Shown: positions 18,230 through 44,934 of the stretch, in pieces
Layout: each line of letters opens with the position of its first letter
How positions within the stretch are numbered: the stretch's first letter is position 1
DNA from: a phage
Length of the DNA: 49,798 nucleotides
Sequence record: NC_101840.1
Reading direction: 5' to 3' (one strand)
Notes under the pieces: model-generated
Told to the model about the DNA's origin: nothing
Database searches by the model: none
Seen by the model: only the letters and a program-made list of their open reading frames with translations
Position numbers and translations under genes: made by a program

Positions 18230-21200
18230 ATGGCTAAATATATGATAAGCGGCAGTAAGGGAGGCGGTCAAAAGCCCTACGTGCCAAAAGAGATGGAAGA
18301 TAACCTGATCTCGATAAACAAGATTAAAGTTTTGCTGGCTGTATCTGATGGCGAGTGCGATCCAGATTTTACGTTGCGTGATCTTTATCTTGATGATGTT
18401 CCGGTTATTGCCAGCGATGGCACTGTTAACTACGAGGGAGTTACGGCTGAATATCGACCAGGCACGCAGACGCAAGATTACATCCAGGGTTTTACTGACA
18501 CATCAAGTGAGGTTACAGTTGCCAGAGATATTACCGGAGACAATCCTTATGTTATTTCTGTTACAAATAAAAATCTATCTGCGGTAAGAATAAAGATCCT
18601 GATGCCAGTAGGCATTAAAACAGAGGATAACGGCGATCTTGTTGGCGTAAGGGTTGAGTATGCCGTAGATATGGCTGTTGATGGCGGTTCTTATAGCGAG
18701 GTTATGAGAGATGTAATTGACGGCAAGACAAGATCAGGATACGACCGCAGCAGAAGGATTGATCTTCCTAAGTTTGATGAGCGCGTTTTAATCCGAGTAA
18801 AGCGACTGACTCCAGACAGCACATCTTCAAAGGTGACTGATAAAATCAAGCTGCAAAGTTACGCTGAGGTTGTTGATGCAAAATTCCGCTATCCTCTGAC
18901 TGGACTTGTATTCGTAGAATTTGACAGCGAATTGTTTCCTACGCAAATCCCTAACATTTCTATAAAAAAGAAATGGAAGATTATTAATGTGCCAAGCAAC
19001 TATGATCCAATATCAAGAGAATATCACGGGTCATGGGATGGGACTTTTAAAAAAGCGTGGTCAAATAATCCTGCTTGGGTTCTTTATGATCTGGTGACAA
19101 ATCAGCGTTATGGACTTGATCAGCGAGAGTTAGGAATACAGATCGACAAGTGGAGCTTATACGAGGCGGGCGTTTACTGCGATCAGAAAGTTCCAGACGG
19201 TAAAGGCGGCACTGAGCCTCGCTACCTATGCGATGTGGTGATTCAGAATCAAGTTGAGGCTTATCAGCTAATCCGTGACATTTGCTCAATCTTTCGCGGA
19301 ATGAGTTTTTGGAATGGTGAGAGCTTATCAATCGTGATTGATAAGCCGCGCGATCCATCATACGTGTTTACTAATGAAAACGTCATCAACGGTGATTTTC
19401 AGTACACAAACGCAAGCGAAAAAAGCATGTACACGCAGTGTAACGTGACGTTTGACGACGAACAAAACATGTATCAGCAGGACGTAGAGGGGGTTTTTGA
19501 TACTGAGGCGGCATTACGATTTGGATACAACCCAACAAGCATTACAGCGATCGGGTGTACGCGCAGGAGCGAAGCGAATCGTCGCGGTCGTTGGGTTTTG
19601 AAAACAAACCTTAGAAGCACTACTGTAAACTTTGCTACCGGACTAGAGGGGATGATTCCATCAATAGGTGATGTTATTGCTATCGCTGATAATTTTCAGA
19701 GTAGCAACCTAACGTTAAACCTATCGGGCCGAGTAATGGAAGTTTCAGGGCTGCAGGTTTTCGTTCCGTTTAAGGTTGATGCTCGCCCTGGTGATTTTAT
19801 TATCATCAACAAGCCGGACGGCAAGCCAGTTAAGCGCACGATCTCAAAGGTTAGCGCAGACGGAAAAACCATTGAGTTAAATATTGGATTTGGTTTTGAT
19901 GTTAAGCCTGATACTGTTTTTGCGATTGACCGTACTGATCTTGCGTTGCAGCAATACGTTGTGACAACCATCAGCAAGGGTGATGACGAAAACGAGTTTA
20001 CCTATTCAATCACGGCTGTAGAGTACGATCCGAACAAATACGACGAGATTGATTATGGAGTAAACATTGATGACAGACCGACTTCAATTGTTCAGCCTGA
20101 CGTGATGGCAGCGCCTGAGAACGTTAAGATCTCATCTTATTCTCGCGTCGTGCAGGGTGTTAGCGTTGAGACTATGGTTGTTTCATGGGATAAGGTTCCT
20201 TACGCATCGCTTTATGAAATGCAGTGGCGAAAAGGTGATGGTAACTGGCTGAATACGCCGCAGACCGCTAACAAAGAGATAGAGGTAGAAGGGATTTACT
20301 CTGGCAACTACCAAGTAAGGGTGAGATCCGTTTCTGCAAGCGGTAACGCTTCCCCGTGGTCAAAGATTGCAACCGCCACTCTGACAGGTAAAGTTGGCGA
20401 GCCAGGAGCGCCGATTAATCTTACGGCTTCTGATAATGAAGTTTTTGGCATTCGTGTCAAATGGGGTATGCCGGAAGGATCAGGCGATACGGCTTACATT
20501 GAGCTTCACCAATCGCCAGACGGAACGGTTGAAAACTCAAGTCTGCTTACGCTGATTCCATATCCTCAATATGAGTATTGGCATAGCACGTTACCAGCGG
20601 GGCAAGTTGTATGGTATAGAATCCGCAGCGTTGACAGAATAGGCAACGTTTCAAGCTGGACTGACTTTGTTCGCGGCATGGCGTCAGATGACGTTGAATC
20701 TGTTTTGGGCGACATTCTGGACAAGATTTTTGATACAGAAGCTGGTCAAGAAATCAAAGAGAACGCCATAGACAGTGCCAATAAAATCAAAGACCAGGCG
20801 CAATCAATCATACAGAACGCGTTGGCAAATGATGCAGATGTGAAGTGGACGCGAGTGCAAAACGGAAAGCGCAAGGCTGAATATGGTCATGCTCTTGAGC
20901 TTATCGCCAATGAAACAGAAGCGCGCGTAACTCAAATCGAAGAGTTAAGGGCTTCAATTGATGGCGAGATAACATCAAGCATCAAGACAGTGCAGGAGGC
21001 AATTGCCACTGAATCAGAGACGCGAGCGACTCAAATTCAGCAGCTTGATTCTAAATTCACAAAAGAAATCGACGGCGTGCGCAAGGATACTTCTGCAAGC
21101 ATTAGCGATGTAAGGCAGACAATCACTAACGAGTCAGAAGCGCGCGCTCAGGCCGTTCAGCAGCTTGACGCTAAGTTCACGAAAGAGATAAACGACCTTG

Positions 21201-21808
21201 ACGGAGTTATCAAAACAGAAGTCGAGGCTAACATCTCAGAAGTGAAACAGGCGATCGCCAATGAGACAGAGGCAAGGGTTCAGGCTGACCAGGCATTAAC
21301 AGCACGATTTGGCGACGTTGAATCTGCATTGGTTGAAAAGTTGGATTCTTGGGCGAGCGTTGATTCAGTTGGCGCTAAATACGCTATGAAACTTGGCCTT
21401 ACTTACAAAGGCCAGCAATACAGCGCAGGAATGGTGATGCAGCTTTCGCAGGGTTCATCCGGCCTTATCTCGCAAATTTTGTTTGATGCTAACAGGTTCG
21501 CCATTATGACTAGCTCTACTGGAGGGACTTTTACTTTGCCTTTCGTGGTTGAGAATAATCAGGTTTTCATTAATAGTCTTTTGGTGAAGAACGGTTCAAT
21601 CACTAATGCGATGATTGGTAATGTGATTCAGTCAAACAACTTTGTTCAAAACCAGCAAGGATGGAGGCTTGATAAAAACGGAATCTTTGAGAATTACGGA
21701 TCAACGCCAGGAGAAGGAGCTACTAAATTCACCAATGAGGGATTGAAGGTAAAAGATGCAAACGGAGTATTGAGGGTTGAAGTCGGAAGGATTACCGGAA
21801 GCTGGTAA
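18230..21808 (+). CDS. central tail fibre / host specificity protein (lambda J-like, about 1190 aa)
   Basis: length, position after I-like gene, fibronectin-III-like middle region, repeat-rich C-terminus; start from internal ATG of track ORF 18179. Confidence 0.85.
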   Translation: MAKYMISGSKGGGQKPYVPKEMEDNLISINKIKVLLAVSDGECDPDFTLRDLYLDDVPVIASDGTVNYEGVTAEYRPGTQTQDYIQGFTDTSSEVTVARDITGDNPYVISVTNKNLSAVRIKILMPVGIKTEDNGDLVGVRVEYAVDMAVDGGSYSEVMRDVIDGKTRSGYDRSRRIDLPKFDERVLIRVKRLTPDSTSSKVTDKIKLQSYAEVVDAKFRYPLTGLVFVEFDSELFPTQIPNISIKKKWKIINVPSNYDPISREYHGSWDGTFKKAWSNNPAWVLYDLVTNQRYGLDQRELGIQIDKWSLYEAGVYCDQKVPDGKGGTEPRYLCDVVIQNQVEAYQLIRDICSIFRGMSFWNGESLSIVIDKPRDPSYVFTNENVINGDFQYTNASEKSMYTQCNVTFDDEQNMYQQDVEGVFDTEAALRFGYNPTSITAIGCTRRSEANRRGRWVLKTNLRSTTVNFATGLEGMIPSIGDVIAIADNFQSSNLTLNLSGRVMEVSGLQVFVPFKVDARPGDFIIINKPDGKPVKRTISKVSADGKTIELNIGFGFDVKPDTVFAIDRTDLALQQYVVTTISKGDDENEFTYSITAVEYDPNKYDEIDYGVNIDDRPTSIVQPDVMAAPENVKISSYSRVVQGVSVETMVVSWDKVPYASLYEMQWRKGDGNWLNTPQTANKEIEVEGIYSGNYQVRVRSVSASGNASPWSKIATATLTGKVGEPGAPINLTASDNEVFGIRVKWGMPEGSGDTAYIELHQSPDGTVENSSLLTLIPYPQYEYWHSTLPAGQVVWYRIRSVDRIGNVSSWTDFVRGMASDDVESVLGDILDKIFDTEAGQEIKENAIDSANKIKDQAQSIIQNALANDADVKWTRVQNGKRKAEYGHALELIANETEARVTQIEELRASIDGEITSSIKTVQEAIATESETRATQIQQLDSKFTKEIDGVRKDTSASISDVRQTITNESEARAQAVQQLDAKFTKEINDLDGVIKTEVEANISEVKQAIANETEARVQADQALTARFGDVESALVEKLDSWASVDSVGAKYAMKLGLTYKGQQYSAGMVMQLSQGSSGLISQILFDANRFAIMTSSTGGTFTLPFVVENNQVFINSLLVKNGSITNAMIGNVIQSNNFVQNQQGWRLDKNGIFENYGSTPGEGATKFTNEGLKVKDANGVLRVEVGRITGSW
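20898..21312 (+). repeat. four imperfect roughly 40-codon repeats in the C-terminal part of the J-like gene
   Basis: peptide repeats ETEARV-TQIEEL / ESETRA-TQIQQL-DSKFTKEIDGV / ESEARA-QAVQQL-DAKFTKEINDLDGV / ETEARV-QADQAL. Confidence 0.4.
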
Positions 21809-21836
21809 AAAAGGGGGCATAGCCCCCTTTAATTTT
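21807..21836. terminator. bidirectional terminator between convergent genes
   Basis: A-run, GGGGGC-ATA-GCCCCC hairpin, T-rich tail. Confidence 0.5.
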
Positions 21837-22449
21837 AATCATAGTGTGATGCATTTATAACCAAAACAGATGAAGCGGTGTAAATACCAACAGGTCCAGG
21901 AGTTTGTGCAACCTGCCTAGAAAAAGAGTAGATCCCGTTACCATACGCGGCAGCTTGAGACTCAAAAATCATGAATCCACCTAAAGCCGGATTAGGAACA
22001 GAGTTTAATGCTGTCAGTGATGGCATTATGGCGCAAGGATAGCCCATGTTAACATCAAATGCGATCCCGCTTACGCCTACTTGCTTTGCATCTAGCGGCC
22101 TCATTTTTCCATGATAAACCATTTCACCATGAGCATTATAAAACGCTATGCCGTGACTACCTGGGGGAGTCACCATATTACTAAAAGCATAAACAATAAC
22201 CTCACCCTGATTATCAGATCTATCAAGTCTTATTGCGTGCCTTCCACCATTGTTAAATTGCGTGAATGATATGTATGATTTAGCGGTCAATCTAACAAAG
22301 AAAAAACATACCCTATCAACAGGAATTGACGAAGTAAAAACGGTTCCGGTATTAGCAGATATTACGGCCCGATCAATTAGATTAACTGGAGTGAAATCTG
22401 GACTTAACCATAACGATCCGTCTGATTTTTTTATACTCATCCCGTACAT
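21835..22449 (-). CDS. hypothetical protein (about 204 aa)
   Basis: track ORF 21835..22461; first ATG with GGGGGTG RBS. Confidence 0.45.
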   Translation of the reverse strand: MYGMSIKKSDGSLWLSPDFTPVNLIDRAVISANTGTVFTSSIPVDRVCFFFVRLTAKSYISFTQFNNGGRHAIRLDRSDNQGEVIVYAFSNMVTPPGSHGIAFYNAHGEMVYHGKMRPLDAKQVGVSGIAFDVNMGYPCAIMPSLTALNSVPNPALGGFMIFESQAAAYGNGIYSFSRQVAQTPGPVGIYTASSVLVINASHYD

Positions 22450-22451
22450 TA

Positions 22452-22730
22452 TCACCCCCAAAAAGTATATATATATCTTGAATCAGATCCAGAAAGCCCA
22501 CTCCATGTAACGGTGTCGCCACTTACCCCTAAGTTTGGTGCGCCAGGGTCGCCACCACGCCAGGAATTCATGCCAACATATATTGCTTTCAATGATTTAC
22601 CTGGCGGCCTGTTTTGGTAAGTCTTGCTACCTGATGGCTGAGTGAATTTATCAAGGAAGAAAACAGGCGTTAAAAGTCCTGTAACTTCCCTTCCTCGATC
22701 GTCATATATTGCATAACCATATTGCGCCAT
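22452..22730 (-). CDS. hypothetical protein (92 aa)
   Basis: track ORF; GAGGTG RBS; start overlaps upstream stop. Confidence 0.45.
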   Translation of the reverse strand: MAQYGYAIYDDRGREVTGLLTPVFFLDKFTQPSGSKTYQNRPPGKSLKAIYVGMNSWRGGDPGAPNLGVSGDTVTWSGLSGSDSRYIYTFWG

Positions 22731-23005
22731 TAATTACACCTCAAATCAATAAATTTACTTTCATTTTGCCAACGGTTGATAAATTTAACTTCTTTATTGT
22801 CAACGCTCAACCTGTATTGCTTTTGGCTGAATCTGTTTTCGCGGACTGCATTAATTTTGACTTCATGGAATCCGTTAACAGGGAATGTTTTAACGTTAAA
22901 TTTTGCCGTGCAATCGATCTCCTTGAAGTTGCCAGTAGGCGACGCTGCGCATCCTGTCAGAGCGGCTACAGTGGCGATAACTGCGATTAACTTTTTCATC
23001 TTCAA
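22730..23005 (-). CDS. outer-membrane lipoprotein, candidate superinfection-exclusion (Cor/Llp-like) protein
   Basis: signal peptide with lipobox LTGC; AAGGAG RBS; first gene of leftward operon beside tail genes. Confidence 0.5.
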   Translation of the reverse strand: MKMKKLIAVIATVAALTGCAASPTGNFKEIDCTAKFNVKTFPVNGFHEVKINAVRENRFSQKQYRLSVDNKEVKFINRWQNESKFIDLRCN

Positions 23006-23054
23006 TACTCCTTAGTTGTTGTTGAATGCAACTATACACGATCTTGGGCATCGC

Positions 23055-23076
23055 GTTTAGCAAAAAGTGCTATTTG
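23055..23076 (-). promoter_or_regulatory. conserved junction box, sense to leftward lipoprotein operon
   Basis: GTTTAGCAAAAAGTGCTATTTG on + strand; TATAGT hexamer about 21 nt downstream on minus strand. Confidence 0.5.
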
Positions 23077-36256: not shown

Positions 36257-36747
36257 TGAGCATAAAGAACAGGGTAGCGGCTGCGGCCTTTGGCGTTGCG
36301 GTTGCCTTGACTTCTCCACTTCTTGAAGAGATCGAAGGGGTAAGATACAAGCCATACAAAGATATTGCTGGAGTATGGACGGTTTGCGCAGGAATCACCG
36401 GACCAGATGTTATCCTGGGGAAAACGTACACTAAAAAAGAGTGTGATGCTTTGTTGGCTAAACATATCCAGGTTGCTAAAAAAGAAGTTGACAAGCAAGT
36501 TAAGGTTGACATTCCTGATAGTATGCGTGCAGCAATGTACTCATTCACTTACAATGCAGGTGTGGGAGCTTTCAGAAATTCAACAATGCTGAAACTCATA
36601 AACCAGGGGAAATTAAACGAGGCTTGCGATCAGCTTTATCGTTGGGCTTATTACCATAACCCAAAAACAGGAAAGCGCGAGAAGTCTAAAGGCTTACTTA
36701 ACAGGCGCAAGGTCGAATACAAATATTGCACAATGGATCTGAAATGA
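36256..36747 (+). CDS. SAR endolysin (lysozyme-like glycosidase with signal-anchor-release domain)
   Basis: N-terminal hydrophobic Ala/Gly-rich SAR segment; catalytic E-8aa-D-5aa-T spacing ([19 protein letters not shown]). Confidence 0.8.
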
Positions 36748-37139
36748 TGAAGAATTTTTTACTTACACCAATCGCAATGGCGGTGATCTTGTCTGGATGT
36801 TCAAGCGTTACGCCACTGACCGGATTAATCGGCAGTAAGCCGGAAATCACAGCACAGGCTGGATCGGAGAACGTGAAGCAGACAGTTGGCATTACAGCAA
36901 AGCAGGACGCCAGCACAAAACAGGAAACCACAATAAAGGAATCTGCGGTTGACAAGGTGGACACGTCCAGCAAGAAGGATTTCACAACATCAACCATTCA
37001 GGCCAATACCATCAAGGCAGACAAAATTCATGTCGTGCAGGGTAATAACGGTAGATGGTACGATCCAGTAATCATATGCGTGGTTGTGTTAATTGTGCTG
37101 ATTTGTCTTTACTGGAGAGAAAAGAAAAAGGAGGCTTAA
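36744..37139 (+). CDS. unimolecular spanin (u-spanin)
   Basis: N-terminal lipoprotein signal with lipobox ILSGC and C-terminal transmembrane helix in one chain, after endolysin. Confidence 0.65.
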
Positions 37140-44072: not shown

Positions 44073-44100
44073 TTGACACGCACCAAATAGCTTTTATAAT
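44073..44100 (+). promoter_or_regulatory. consensus sigma70 promoter (TTGACA-N16-TATAAT) for rightward early operon
   Basis: perfect -35 and -10 hexamers about 30 nt upstream of ATG 44132. Confidence 0.6.
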
Positions 44101-44131: not shown

Positions 44132-44596
44132 ATGGAACAGAAGACCACTAAGGACTATTGCGATTGGCTTCGCGAGCTTGGTCGCCGCCTGGCTAGTGGC
44201 GATATTGAAGAGTATAAAATGTCACTAATTGACCTGGCCGGAATGTTAAGCGGTGACGACTGCTACAAGATCACGCGCAGTTCATCCTACAGCCGGACCA
44301 TTATCAACCGCGTTCCAGAAGTAAGGGCCGCAGGTCGGGTAAGCATCAAGGTAGAGGAAACGGAAGATGATAAATTTTACGTTTTCCGCATGGTCCGCGA
44401 ATCGAAAAGGAAAATCATCACACCCGAAGAATTGCCAGCCATCAAGGCGAGGGCGATCAAAAAGTTTGCCGATCGCTTACTGGCAGCAATCCCGAATATC
44501 GTTGACCTGGAAGGGGATAAACTGGCTGGGGCTTGCGAGGGCGTAAGCCGCTACCAGGATATGATCCGCGAAATCATCAAAGAGGAAGAGCAATGA
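44132..44596 (+). CDS. hypothetical early protein (154 aa)
   Basis: internal ATG of track ORF 44099 with GGAGGAAAGGAA RBS. Confidence 0.5.
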   Translation: MEQKTTKDYCDWLRELGRRLASGDIEEYKMSLIDLAGMLSGDDCYKITRSSSYSRTIINRVPEVRAAGRVSIKVEETEDDKFYVFRMVRESKRKIITPEELPAIKARAIKKFADRLLAAIPNIVDLEGDKLAGACEGVSRYQDMIREIIKEEEQ

Positions 44597-44865
44597 AAAA
44601 GGCATTAATCAGCGTTTTGGCGGCAATGGCATTCCTGACCGGATGTAAAGAAGATGGCGCGCATGTTGGCAATGTGCAGATGGCTAACCCTGGCGATGAC
44701 TACAGCGTAAGGGAGCTATTCACCGCTGACGGTTGCACCGTTTACCGATTCTATGACGATCGCACTGTTTACTTCACCAACTGTAAGGGAACGACTAGCT
44801 GGGAAGTGTCGAAAAGCAATGGCAAAGGCACGAAGACAGAACATATGACCGTCGAGACAAAATAG
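44593..44865 (+). CDS. lipoprotein (90 aa), second candidate superinfection-exclusion protein
   Basis: signal peptide with lipobox LTGC; ATGA overlap with upstream gene (track 44533 uses upstream start). Confidence 0.55.
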   Translation: MKKALISVLAAMAFLTGCKEDGAHVGNVQMANPGDDYSVRELFTADGCTVYRFYDDRTVYFTNCKGTTSWEVSKSNGKGTKTEHMTVETK

Positions 44866-44881
44866 CACTTTTTGTTAAAAC
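44860..44881 (+). promoter_or_regulatory. conserved junction box (consensus copy), sense
   Basis: AAATAGCACTTTTTGTTAAAAC; TAG is lipoprotein stop; hairpin GGGGCC-AGGTATAAT-GGCCC follows. Confidence 0.55.
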
Positions 44882-44934
44882 TCAAATGTGGGGCCAGGTA
44901 TAATGGCCCTACTTTCAACGAAGGAGATAAAACG

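What the first reader, a model, noticed from the sequence alone, without database searches (positions are those of the whole stretch)
22730..23005. Two lipoprotein genes as candidate receptor-blocking superinfection-exclusion factors
Both 22730-23005 (minus, beside the tail genes) and 44593-44865 (rightward early operon) encode short proteins with signal peptides ending in the lipobox LTGC. T1- and T5-type phages encode Cor/Llp lipoproteins that inactivate their own outer-membrane receptor; having two candidates is unusual and might target two receptors.
Basis: partly seen in the sequence, partly recalled or inferred. Interest (0 to 1): 0.4.

Follow-up and report, generated by a model that had tools for sequence, protein, structure and literature searches.

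The report
One receptor-blocker lipoprotein, one unknown
This T1-like coliphage encodes two small secreted lipoproteins: one sits in the receptor-recognition cassette and most likely blocks the phage's own receptor (BtuB, not FhuA), which is an ordinary feature, while the other belongs to a widespread, uncharacterised family of phage lipoproteins that does not track receptor type.

Summary
Both genes are real. The window is a Warwickvirus (Drexlerviridae), about 99% identical to phages tuinn, tonn and AV105.

**LP1** (22730-22999, minus strand; the true start is the ATG, not the TTG at 23005) is the first gene of a three-gene cassette just downstream of gpJ.
- The cassette is 98-99% identical to that of BASEL phage FritzSarasin, which uses BtuB.
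- It recurs in the same layout in KarlJaspers and PTXU06, both BtuB-dependent.
- PeterMerian, a FhuA phage of the same genus, carries a T1-type cor cassette instead.
- LP1 is therefore best read as the BtuB-blocking counterpart of Cor/Llp.
- This rests on context. Its mature domain shows no significant sequence or fold match to Cor or Llp, and no experiment exists.

**LP2** (44593-44865, plus strand) is the second gene behind a perfect sigma-70 promoter and belongs to Pfam DUF4884.
- The family has about 1,770 cluster representatives, mostly 80-95-residue proteins, most with a lipobox; every context examined was phage-like.
- Its allele is uncoupled from the receptor. FritzSarasin (BtuB) and PeterMerian (FhuA) share 97.7% identical LP2, while the window and FritzSarasin share only 48%.
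- LP2 is unlikely to block the phage's own receptor. Its function is unknown.

A third lipoprotein is the unimolecular spanin. Overall this is ordinary, with one modestly interesting unknown.

The parts
22730..22999 (-). LP1: 89-aa outer-membrane lipoprotein (lipobox LTGC, +2 Ala; Cys30 and Cys88 bracket the mature domain). Inferred BtuB-blocking superinfection-exclusion protein.
   Evidence: It is 98.9% identical to the FritzSarasin (BtuB) protein and 55.7% to the KarlJaspers (BtuB) protein. The predicted mature domain has pLDDT 79-90.
23031..23073 (-). Putative promoter of the LP1 cassette: a copy of the 20-nt box ATAGCACTTTTTGCTAAACG, 17 nt of spacer, then TATAGT.
   Evidence: This is one of 14 copies of a box that is always followed by a -10-like hexamer and then a Shine-Dalgarno plus ATG.
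22452..22730 (-). 92-aa protein, a distant homologue of T1 gp32. Its start overlaps the LP1 stop (TAATG). Probable receptor-binding module component.
   Evidence: phrog_557, E=4e-20. 98.9% identical to FritzSarasin, 72% to KarlJaspers, and 31% to the PeterMerian 103-aa protein at E=1e-4. No signal peptide or transmembrane-like stretch.
21835..22449 (-). 204-aa protein, a distant homologue of T1 gp31 and last gene of the cassette. Probable receptor-binding protein.
   Evidence: phrog_425, E=1e-49. 98.1% identical to FritzSarasin, 64% to KarlJaspers, and 25% to the PeterMerian 197-aa protein at E=6e-10. No signal peptide or transmembrane-like stretch.
21810..21830 (.). GC-rich hairpin between the converging gpJ gene and the cassette; a terminator-like site.
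18230..21808 (+). gpJ-like tail tip protein; the cassette lies directly downstream of it.
   Evidence: 67% identical to T1 gp33.
44593..44865 (+). LP2: 90-aa outer-membrane lipoprotein (lipobox LTGC, +2 Lys) of Pfam family DUF4884. Conserved core LFTADGCTVYRFYDDRTVYFTNC, with Cys48 and Cys64 invariant.
44132..44596 (+). 154-aa DUF7174 protein, first gene of the early operon. Its TGA stop overlaps the LP2 ATG.
   Evidence: Pfam DUF7174, E=3e-51.
44073..44100 (+). Consensus sigma-70 promoter (TTGACA, 16-nt spacer, TATAAT) driving the DUF7174-LP2 operon.
   Evidence: 12 of 12 matches.
36747..37139 (+). Third lipoprotein: unimolecular spanin (lipobox LSGC plus a C-terminal transmembrane helix) following the holin and endolysin genes.
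   Evidence: The T1 gp11 counterpart sits at the same position in the T1 annotation.

Best explanation
The two lipoproteins are unrelated and do different jobs.

LP1 is the lipoprotein component of the BtuB-type host-recognition cassette that small siphoviruses carry downstream of gpJ. After Sec export, lipidation and Lol sorting (no Asp at +2), it would sit in the inner leaflet of the outer membrane. By analogy with T5 Llp on FhuA, it would bind the periplasmic face or plug of the TonB-dependent transporter BtuB, so that the extracellular side no longer accepts this phage's receptor-binding proteins. That would exclude superinfection and stop progeny adsorbing to debris.
- Shown: gene structure, cassette homology and the association with BtuB.
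- Inferred: localisation, BtuB binding and exclusion.

LP2 is an immediate-early outer-membrane lipoprotein of the DUF4884 family. It has a small, probably disulfide-bonded beta core. It acts in the periplasm on something other than the phage's terminal receptor, most likely a conserved envelope component. Its precise target is unknown.
For: LP1:
- It lies directly downstream of gpJ and is translationally coupled to homologues of T1 gp32 and gp31.
- All three cassette proteins are 98-99% identical to FritzSarasin/Bas04, whose terminal receptor is BtuB.
- The same minus-strand arrangement, at 56/72/64% identity, occurs in KarlJaspers/Bas06, a BtuB phage of another genus. It also occurs in the Dhillonvirus PTXU06, reported as BtuB-dependent in PMC10373560.
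- PeterMerian/Bas05, of the same genus but using FhuA, has the T1-type layout with a T1-like Cor.
- Near-identical JLBYU warwickviruses do not depend on FhuA alone.
- Warwickvirus Arnold is 97% identical to G3B1, which itself carries a 100% identical LP1, and it requires BtuB.
- LP1 shares its architecture with Llp, Cor and the BF23-type Llp: 58-72 mature residues, with one Cys 7-13 residues after the lipid Cys and one near the C-terminus.
- BF23/DT57C Llp is an experimental precedent for a lipoprotein that blocks BtuB and is not homologous to T5 Llp.
- The FhuA-Llp structure paper predicts the same mechanism for other TonB-dependent transporters.

LP2:
- Pfam DUF4884 scores above its gathering cutoff.
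- It sits behind a 12/12 sigma-70 promoter with an ATGA overlap to the upstream gene.
- FritzSarasin (BtuB) and PeterMerian (FhuA) LP2 are 97.7% identical, while the window and FritzSarasin are only 48% identical despite a 100% identical upstream gene.
- Homologues occur in LptD phages (JeanPiccard, Rtp) and in Serratia, Erwinia, Pantoea, Pseudomonas and Xanthomonas phages. T1 has none.
- There are 1,767 family representatives, and 114 of the top 148 have a lipobox upstream of the core motif.
Against: LP1:
- No experiment exists for this lipoprotein.
- With the signal peptide removed it has no hit to the Cor PHROG family.
- It scores 19.2 bits against the NCBIfam Cor model, below the cutoff of 31.
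- A profile of mature LP1 relatives scores DT57C Llp, T5 Llp and T1 Cor no better than 3-7% of shuffled sequences.
- The co-transcribed 92-aa and 204-aa proteins could mean LP1 has an assembly-related role instead.

LP2:
- Uncoupling from the phage's own receptor does not exclude blocking some other receptor.
- Its allelic mosaicism among close relatives is what one might expect of an exclusion or arms-race gene.
- The structure model is weak (pLDDT 66) and gave no fold match.
Confidence: 0.65

Rival explanations
1. One reading: both lipoproteins are receptor-blocking exclusion factors, with LP2 inactivating a second outer-membrane receptor (for example FhuA, TolC or LptD) to exclude other phages.
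For: LP2 is an early-expressed outer-membrane lipoprotein of the right size, with a conserved Cys pair. Its alleles are swapped among otherwise near-identical phages, as expected for genes under phage-phage or phage-host conflict.
Against: LP2 is not linked to any receptor-binding gene. Its allele does not follow receptor type. Its core is strongly conserved across phages of E. coli, Serratia, Pseudomonas and Xanthomonas, whereas known blockers are receptor-specific and diverge quickly: about 20% identity between Llp and Cor, and none between T5 and BF23 Llp. It has no sequence or fold link to Cor or Llp.
Confidence: 0.1
2. LP2 blocks a step after adsorption. Phages of this type need the inner-membrane protein SdaC and the periplasmic protein DcrB as well as BtuB. 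LP2 could interfere with that periplasmic or inner-membrane entry route and so exclude relatives whatever outer-membrane receptor they use.
For: Warwickvirus Arnold needs BtuB, SdaC and DcrB. The older phages C1 (BtuB) and C6 (FhuA) both need SdaC and DcrB. This parallels FritzSarasin (BtuB) and PeterMerian (FhuA) sharing one LP2 allele. Immediate-early timing also fits exclusion.
Against: This is purely circumstantial. The window and FritzSarasin presumably share the entry route yet differ at LP2 (48%). The family extends to Pseudomonas and Xanthomonas phages, for which nothing here indicates use of that entry route. LP2 is predicted to be anchored in the outer membrane, whereas SdaC is in the inner membrane.
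Confidence: 0.1
3. LP2 is a general envelope modulator of lytic phages. It might inhibit a conserved periplasmic enzyme or sensor (a muralytic enzyme, an envelope-stress sensor or the outer-membrane biogenesis machinery), protecting the infected cell or tuning lysis rather than excluding phages.
For: The core is very widespread and strongly conserved in early-gene arrays of unrelated lytic phages. This argues for a target conserved among Gram-negative bacteria. T1 lacks it, so it is accessory.
Against: No homology, fold match, domain fusion or conserved neighbouring gene points to any particular target.
Confidence: 0.3
4. LP1 is not an exclusion protein but an accessory factor needed to produce or assemble the co-transcribed receptor-binding proteins.
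For: LP1 is translationally coupled to the 92-aa and 204-aa proteins in one operon. Its mature domain matches no characterised exclusion lipoprotein.
Against: The 92-aa and 204-aa proteins have no export signal, so they are cytoplasmic while LP1 is periplasmic. In T1-type cassettes the lipoprotein is transcribed separately from the opposite strand. In T1, T5 and BF23 the lipoprotein at this position is an exclusion protein.
Confidence: 0.08

Closest known systems
Cor of phages T1, phi80 and N15 (FhuA-blocking lipoprotein; NCBIfam NF047972, phrog_1119)
   Same: LP1 occupies the equivalent genomic position, between gpJ with the gp32/gp31-like genes on one side and the recE-like exonuclease gene on the other. 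Both are small outer-membrane lipoproteins with a Cys pair bracketing the mature domain. The neighbouring 92-aa and 204-aa genes are distant homologues of T1 gp32 and gp31.
   Different: The mature domain shows no detectable similarity, and the family hits come from the signal peptide. It is 14 residues longer. The whole cassette is inverted and co-transcribed with the lipoprotein gene first. The associated receptor is BtuB, not FhuA.
Llp of T5 (PDB 8A60 and 7QJF), which jams FhuA from the periplasmic side
   Same: LP1 has the same presumed mode of action on a TonB-dependent transporter, a similar size, a termini-constraining Cys pair, and a location next to the receptor-binding gene.
BF23/DT57C-type Llp, an experimentally shown blocker of BtuB-dependent phages
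   Same: It shares the presumed target (BtuB), is almost the same length (88 vs 89 aa), and has a similar Cys pattern. A full-length profile alignment extends into the mature domain with motifs VK(S/T)F, VK..VR and (D/N)RF.
   Different: Once the signal peptide is removed the similarity is not significant (p about 0.05 by shuffling). It belongs to a T5-like phage with a pb5-type receptor-binding protein rather than a gp31/gp32-type cassette.
Pfam DUF4884 (PF16225) / phrog_6360, uncharacterised small lipoproteins
   Same: LP2 is a member. It scores 31.8 bits against a cutoff of 30, has the conserved core and the invariant Cys48/Cys64, and carries a lipobox like most relatives.
   Different: The window's allele lacks the second Cys pair (SCGKxC) found in most members and has a longer N-terminal linker.

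Membership tests
Cor exclusion lipoprotein family (NF047972 / phrog_1119), for LP1 | Scores above the curated family threshold, with the match covering the mature domain | tested here: not met
   NCBIfam score is 19.2 bits against a cutoff of 31. The PHROG hit at E=9e-8 disappears when the signal peptide is removed. BLASTP and hhalign against T1 Cor align only residues 1-35.
Cor exclusion lipoprotein family, for LP1 | Small lipoprotein with a lipobox and an intramolecular Cys pair | tested here: met
   Lipobox LTGC. Cys30 and Cys88 are invariant in 19 relatives. T1 Cor has Cys25 and Cys73.
Cor exclusion lipoprotein family, for LP1 | Encoded downstream of gpJ together with gp32-like and gp31-like genes | tested here: met
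   phrog_557 and phrog_425 hits, pairwise homology to the PeterMerian proteins, and comparison with the T1 gene map. The orientation is inverted relative to T1.
Cor exclusion lipoprotein family, for LP1 | The phage uses FhuA, and the protein blocks FhuA | tested here: not met
   The cassette matches BtuB phages Bas04, Bas06 and PTXU06. Close relatives do not depend on FhuA alone and need BtuB. Blocking itself cannot be tested here.
Llp-type receptor-jamming lipoproteins (T5 Llp; BF23 Llp), for LP1 | Sequence or fold similarity to a characterised Llp | tested here: inconclusive
Llp-type receptor-jamming lipoproteins, for LP1 | Expression confers resistance to phages using the cognate receptor | not testable with these tools
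   This needs plating assays. No published test of this lipoprotein turned up in the searched library.
Receptor-blocking exclusion lipoprotein, for LP2 | Genetic linkage to, and co-variation with, the receptor-binding module | tested here: not met
   LP2 lies about 22 kb from the cassette. The LP2 allele is 97.7% identical between a BtuB phage and a FhuA phage, and 48% between two phages with the same cassette.
Pfam DUF4884, for LP2 | Scores above the Pfam gathering threshold and has the conserved core motif | tested here: met
   31.8 bits against a cutoff of 30. Core DGCTVYRFYDDRTVYFTNC with invariant cysteines. 1,767 representatives matched.
Spanins (o-spanin or u-spanin), for LP1 and LP2 | Located in the lysis cassette; a u-spanin has a C-terminal transmembrane helix | tested here: not met
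   Neither gene is near the holin and endolysin genes, and neither has a C-terminal hydrophobic stretch. The real u-spanin is at 36747-37139.

The most novel reading that the evidence does not exclude
DUF4884 lipoproteins such as LP2 are a new, widespread class of immediate-early phage envelope effectors. They might be exclusion factors acting after adsorption on a conserved periplasmic or inner-membrane entry step (here the SdaC/DcrB route), or inhibitors of a conserved envelope machine, independent of the outer-membrane receptor.
Probability: 0.2. Interest if true: 0.6.

Novelty: new member of a known kind. Interest (0 to 1): 0.3.

Why it matters
LP1 adds little conceptually. The BASEL work already linked allelic cassettes downstream of gpJ, including cognate exclusion proteins, to receptor choice, and the FhuA-Llp structure paper predicted that other TonB-dependent transporters are jammed in the same way.

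Its value is practical in two ways:
- It lets one predict BtuB use for this phage.
- It is a compact candidate for the first structural study of a T1-type BtuB blocker.

LP2 matters more as an open question. This lipoprotein family has well over a thousand sequence clusters, is expressed from the strongest early promoter here, and is found across many lytic phages, yet it has no known function. Such a family is a reasonable target for a simple expression and deletion screen.

Tried and rejected
1. The PHROG 'Cor' hit for LP1 looked like direct confirmation, but it vanished once the signal peptide was removed. I rejected it as evidence of homology.
2. hhalign of the LP1 family against DT57C Llp gave 91% probability. 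A shuffle test on mature domains gave p about 0.05, and T5 Llp and T1 Cor scored the same. I treated this as inconclusive.
3. Fold searches gave no specific match:
   - LP2 by Foldseek against the PDB gave nothing.
   - LP1 by Foldseek gave nothing.
4. The DUF4884 profile hit the designer propellers Cake2-10 with E-values down to 2e-16. The alignments show about 6 bits per identical blade summed nine times. This is at most a weak resemblance to a propeller blade. No BamB structure appeared among the hits.
5. I looked for informative domain fusions among longer DUF4884 proteins. All have an internal signal peptide and lipobox, so they are probably mis-called starts.
6. I looked for a conserved neighbouring gene in metagenomic contigs and found none, only arrays of small early genes.
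7. PADLOC defence models gave no hits.
8. The spanin explanation was rejected for both genes.
9. The Rtp genome paper (PMC1367250) was not available.

Full report
**Identity of the window**

The window is a nearly complete genome of a Warwickvirus (Drexlerviridae, Tempevirinae). The LP1 region is 99.6-99.9% identical to phages tuinn, AV105, tonn and JLBYU01. The first 25 kb is about 98% identical to ityhuna and vB_EcoS-G3B1.

**Observation**

Both ORFs are present and encode lipoprotein precursors.
- LP1 on the minus strand reads MKKLIAVIATVAALTGC. The ATG at 22999 lies 8 nt after an AAGGAG, and relatives are annotated from it at 89 aa. The TTG at 23005 is simply the first start codon in the open frame.
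- LP2 reads MKKALISVLAAMAFLTGC. Its ATG at 44593 overlaps the TGA stop of the upstream gene.
- A strict signal-peptide plus lipobox pattern finds exactly these two ORFs. Simulated windows give 0.29 on average, and 1.5% reach two or more.
- The lipid cysteine is invariant in both families.
- Neither protein has Asp at +2, so by the established E. coli sorting rule both should reach the outer membrane. This is an inference.
- A looser scan finds a third lipoprotein, the unimolecular spanin at 36747-37139. It has a C-terminal transmembrane helix and follows the holin and endolysin genes.

**Anatomy around LP1**

gpJ ends at 21808, followed by a GC-rich hairpin at 21810-21830. Three minus-strand genes then converge on gpJ:
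- LP1 (22730-22999).
- A 92-aa gene whose ATG overlaps the LP1 stop (22452-22730).
- A 204-aa gene (21835-22449).

The 92-aa and 204-aa proteins hit the PHROG families that contain T1 gp32 and gp31, at E=4e-20 and 1e-49. [quoted passage not shown]

In T1 the order is gpJ, gp32 (+), gp31 (+), cor (-), recE (+). In the window the whole module is inverted, and the lipoprotein gene comes first in the operon.

About 55 nt upstream of LP1 is a copy of a 20-nt box, ATAGCACTTTTTGTTAAAAC. This box occurs 14 times in the window, against none expected. Each copy is followed at a fixed distance by a -10-like hexamer and then a Shine-Dalgarno plus ATG. LP1 therefore appears to have a promoter of the phage's own recurring class.

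**Which receptor**

The BASEL study matched allelic 'receptor-binding loci' downstream of gpJ, described as carrying cognate exclusion proteins, to each terminal receptor of small siphoviruses (PMC8594841). Its table gives BtuB for Bas04 FritzSarasin and Bas06 KarlJaspers, and FhuA for Bas05 PeterMerian. The comparisons with the window are:

| Phage | Genus | Receptor | Cassette layout | Identity to window (LP1 / 92-aa / 204-aa) |
|---|---|---|---|---|
| FritzSarasin (Bas04) | Warwickvirus | BtuB | same as window | 98.9 / 98.9 / 98.1% |
| KarlJaspers (Bas06) | Hanrivervirus | BtuB | same as window | 55.7 / 72 / 64% |
| PTXU06 | Dhillonvirus | BtuB-dependent (PMC10373560) | same as window | LP1 54.5%, 204-aa 60.1% |
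| PeterMerian (Bas05) | Warwickvirus | FhuA | T1-type | T1-like 75-aa Cor, similar to LP1 only across the signal peptide |

The PeterMerian gp31-like and gp32-like proteins are still distant homologues of the window's proteins: 25% at E=6e-10, and 31% at E=1e-4.

Two further points fit BtuB.
- A preprint shows that Warwickvirus Arnold is 97% identical to G3B1, which carries a 100% identical LP1. Arnold needs BtuB, the inner-membrane protein SdaC, and to a lesser degree the periplasmic protein DcrB.

The cassette, and hence LP1, therefore goes with BtuB.

**Is LP1 a Cor or an Llp?**

It cannot be shown to be either.
- The PHROG Cor hit (E=9e-8) disappears when the signal peptide is removed.
- The NCBIfam Cor model gives 19.2 bits against a cutoff of 31.
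- BLASTP and hhalign against T1 Cor align only residues 1-35.
- DT57C Llp is one residue different from BF23 Llp and was shown experimentally to exclude BtuB phages. Against it, hhalign gives 91% probability with an alignment reaching residue 63.
- However, a profile built from mature LP1 relatives scores mature DT57C Llp, T5 Llp, T1 Cor and PeterMerian Cor no better than 3-7% of shuffled sequences.

What LP1 does share with all three characterised blockers is its architecture. Each has a lipid Cys, a second Cys 7-13 residues later, 45-57 residues of beta-rich sequence, and a last Cys close to the C-terminus. In Llp this pair forms the Cys11-Cys58 disulfide that ties the termini together.

T5 Llp and BF23 Llp perform the same function without being homologous. 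Failing the membership test therefore lowers 'LP1 is a Cor', not 'LP1 works like Llp'.

The mechanism I commit to is the Llp one (PMC9586334). The lipoprotein would sit on the periplasmic face, bind the plug of the TonB-dependent transporter, and allosterically close the extracellular phage-binding site. This is inferred, not shown. I put it at about 0.75.

**LP2**

LP2 is the second gene behind a perfect TTGACA-16-TATAAT promoter at 44073-44100. It follows a DUF7174 protein. It passes the Pfam DUF4884 threshold, 31.8 bits against 30.

Relatives share a strongly conserved core, LFT.DGCTVYRFYDDRTVYFTNC.G, with invariant Cys48 and Cys64. Most have a second Cys pair that the window's allele lacks.

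An exhaustive profile search finds 1,767 cluster representatives, 746 of them at E of 1e-10 or better. Most listed hits are 80-95 residues long. Of the top 148, 114 have a lipobox upstream of the core motif. The few longer ones have an internal signal peptide, so no informative fusions were found. Contexts are arrays of small early genes in large and small lytic phages, with no constant neighbour.

In the phage collection, homologues occur in:
- Drexlerviridae using BtuB (FritzSarasin), FhuA (PeterMerian, JakobBernoulli) and LptD (JeanPiccard, Rtp).
- Serratia, Erwinia, Pantoea, Pseudomonas and Xanthomonas phages.

T1 has none.

The key test is whether the LP2 allele follows the receptor. It does not.
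- FritzSarasin (BtuB) and PeterMerian (FhuA) LP2 are 97.7% identical.
- The window and FritzSarasin share the receptor cassette and a 100% identical upstream gene, yet their LP2 proteins are only 48% identical.
- DNA identity of 96.6% ends at 44645, the last codon of the signal peptide.

LP2 is thus an exchangeable accessory gene unlinked to the terminal receptor. The structure model is weak (pLDDT 66), a six-strand beta meander, and has no fold match. The profile's hits to the designer 'Cake' propellers are about 6 bits per identical blade added up. At most they hint at a propeller-blade-like hairpin motif. PADLOC has nothing.

**What LP2 might do**

The conserved core across phages of different hosts argues for a conserved periplasmic target. 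The allelic swapping among close relatives argues for some conflict-related role. My estimates are:
- A general envelope effector: about 0.3.
- A block on the post-adsorption entry route, prompted by the SdaC/DcrB requirement that is shared by BtuB-type and FhuA-type relatives: about 0.1.

None of these can be settled with sequence tools.

**Comparison with what is known, and verdict**

LP1 is a new member of a known kind: a receptor-blocking lipoprotein paired with a receptor-binding module. This very locus type has already been described for Bas04 and Bas06, though LP1 itself has not been tested experimentally in any paper I could find. LP2 is a member of an uncharacterised family.

Its interpretation is half right: correct for LP1 but with the wrong receptor, and unsupported for LP2. 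Having two lipoproteins is not unusual for these phages. Overall interest is low to moderate.

Noticed in passing
window 7990, 11740, 23054, 30639, 33128, 34198, 37440, 39602, 40276, 42193, 43498, 44862, 46312, 48947 (20-nt sites): A 20-nt box, ATAGCACTTTTTGTTAAAAC, occurs 14 times against none expected. Each copy is followed 17-19 nt later by a -10-like hexamer and then a Shine-Dalgarno plus ATG, and often has a GC-rich inverted repeat in the spacer. This looks like a phage-specific promoter class, possibly activator-dependent. Two copies (7990 and 11740) point antisense inside the structural gene block.
   Followed up: partly
window 44645 (junction) and 44593-44886: DNA identity to FritzSarasin is 96.6% up to the last codon of the LP2 signal peptide and then collapses. 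The mature LP2 domain is therefore exchanged as a unit, with the conserved signal-peptide sequence serving as the recombination boundary.
   Followed up: partly
window 21835-22730 (minus strand): [quoted passage not shown] They have no signal peptide or transmembrane-like segment, so these inherited names are probably wrong. They are more likely virion receptor-binding proteins.
   Followed up: partly
window 21835-22449; Stx-converting phages (e.g. NC_049925, NC_004914): The 204-aa protein has about 44% identical homologues in many Stx-converting phages.
   Followed up: no
window 44593-44865 (LP2 residues 36-73): The DUF4884 core shows a weak, repeated resemblance to single blades of PQQ-like beta-propellers (designer Cake proteins; native 3hxj at E=0.009). 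The family might therefore be a one-blade module that oligomerises.
   Followed up: partly
window 36747-37139: The third lipoprotein of the genome is a unimolecular spanin with a lipobox (LSGC) and a C-terminal transmembrane helix, directly after the holin and endolysin genes.
   Followed up: partly
whole window: A close relative, phage Arnold, needs the inner-membrane serine transporter SdaC and periplasmic DcrB in addition to BtuB, like the old phage C1. This window may therefore be a sequenced representative of the C1-type entry route.
   Followed up: no
Proteus phages (e.g. NC_070976) and Cronobacter phage LC519601 (~90 kb): Distant LP1 homologues (about 30% identity, full length) occur in ~90-kb Proteus and Cronobacter phages unrelated to T1. 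This suggests the lipoprotein type travels beyond small siphoviruses.
   Followed up: no
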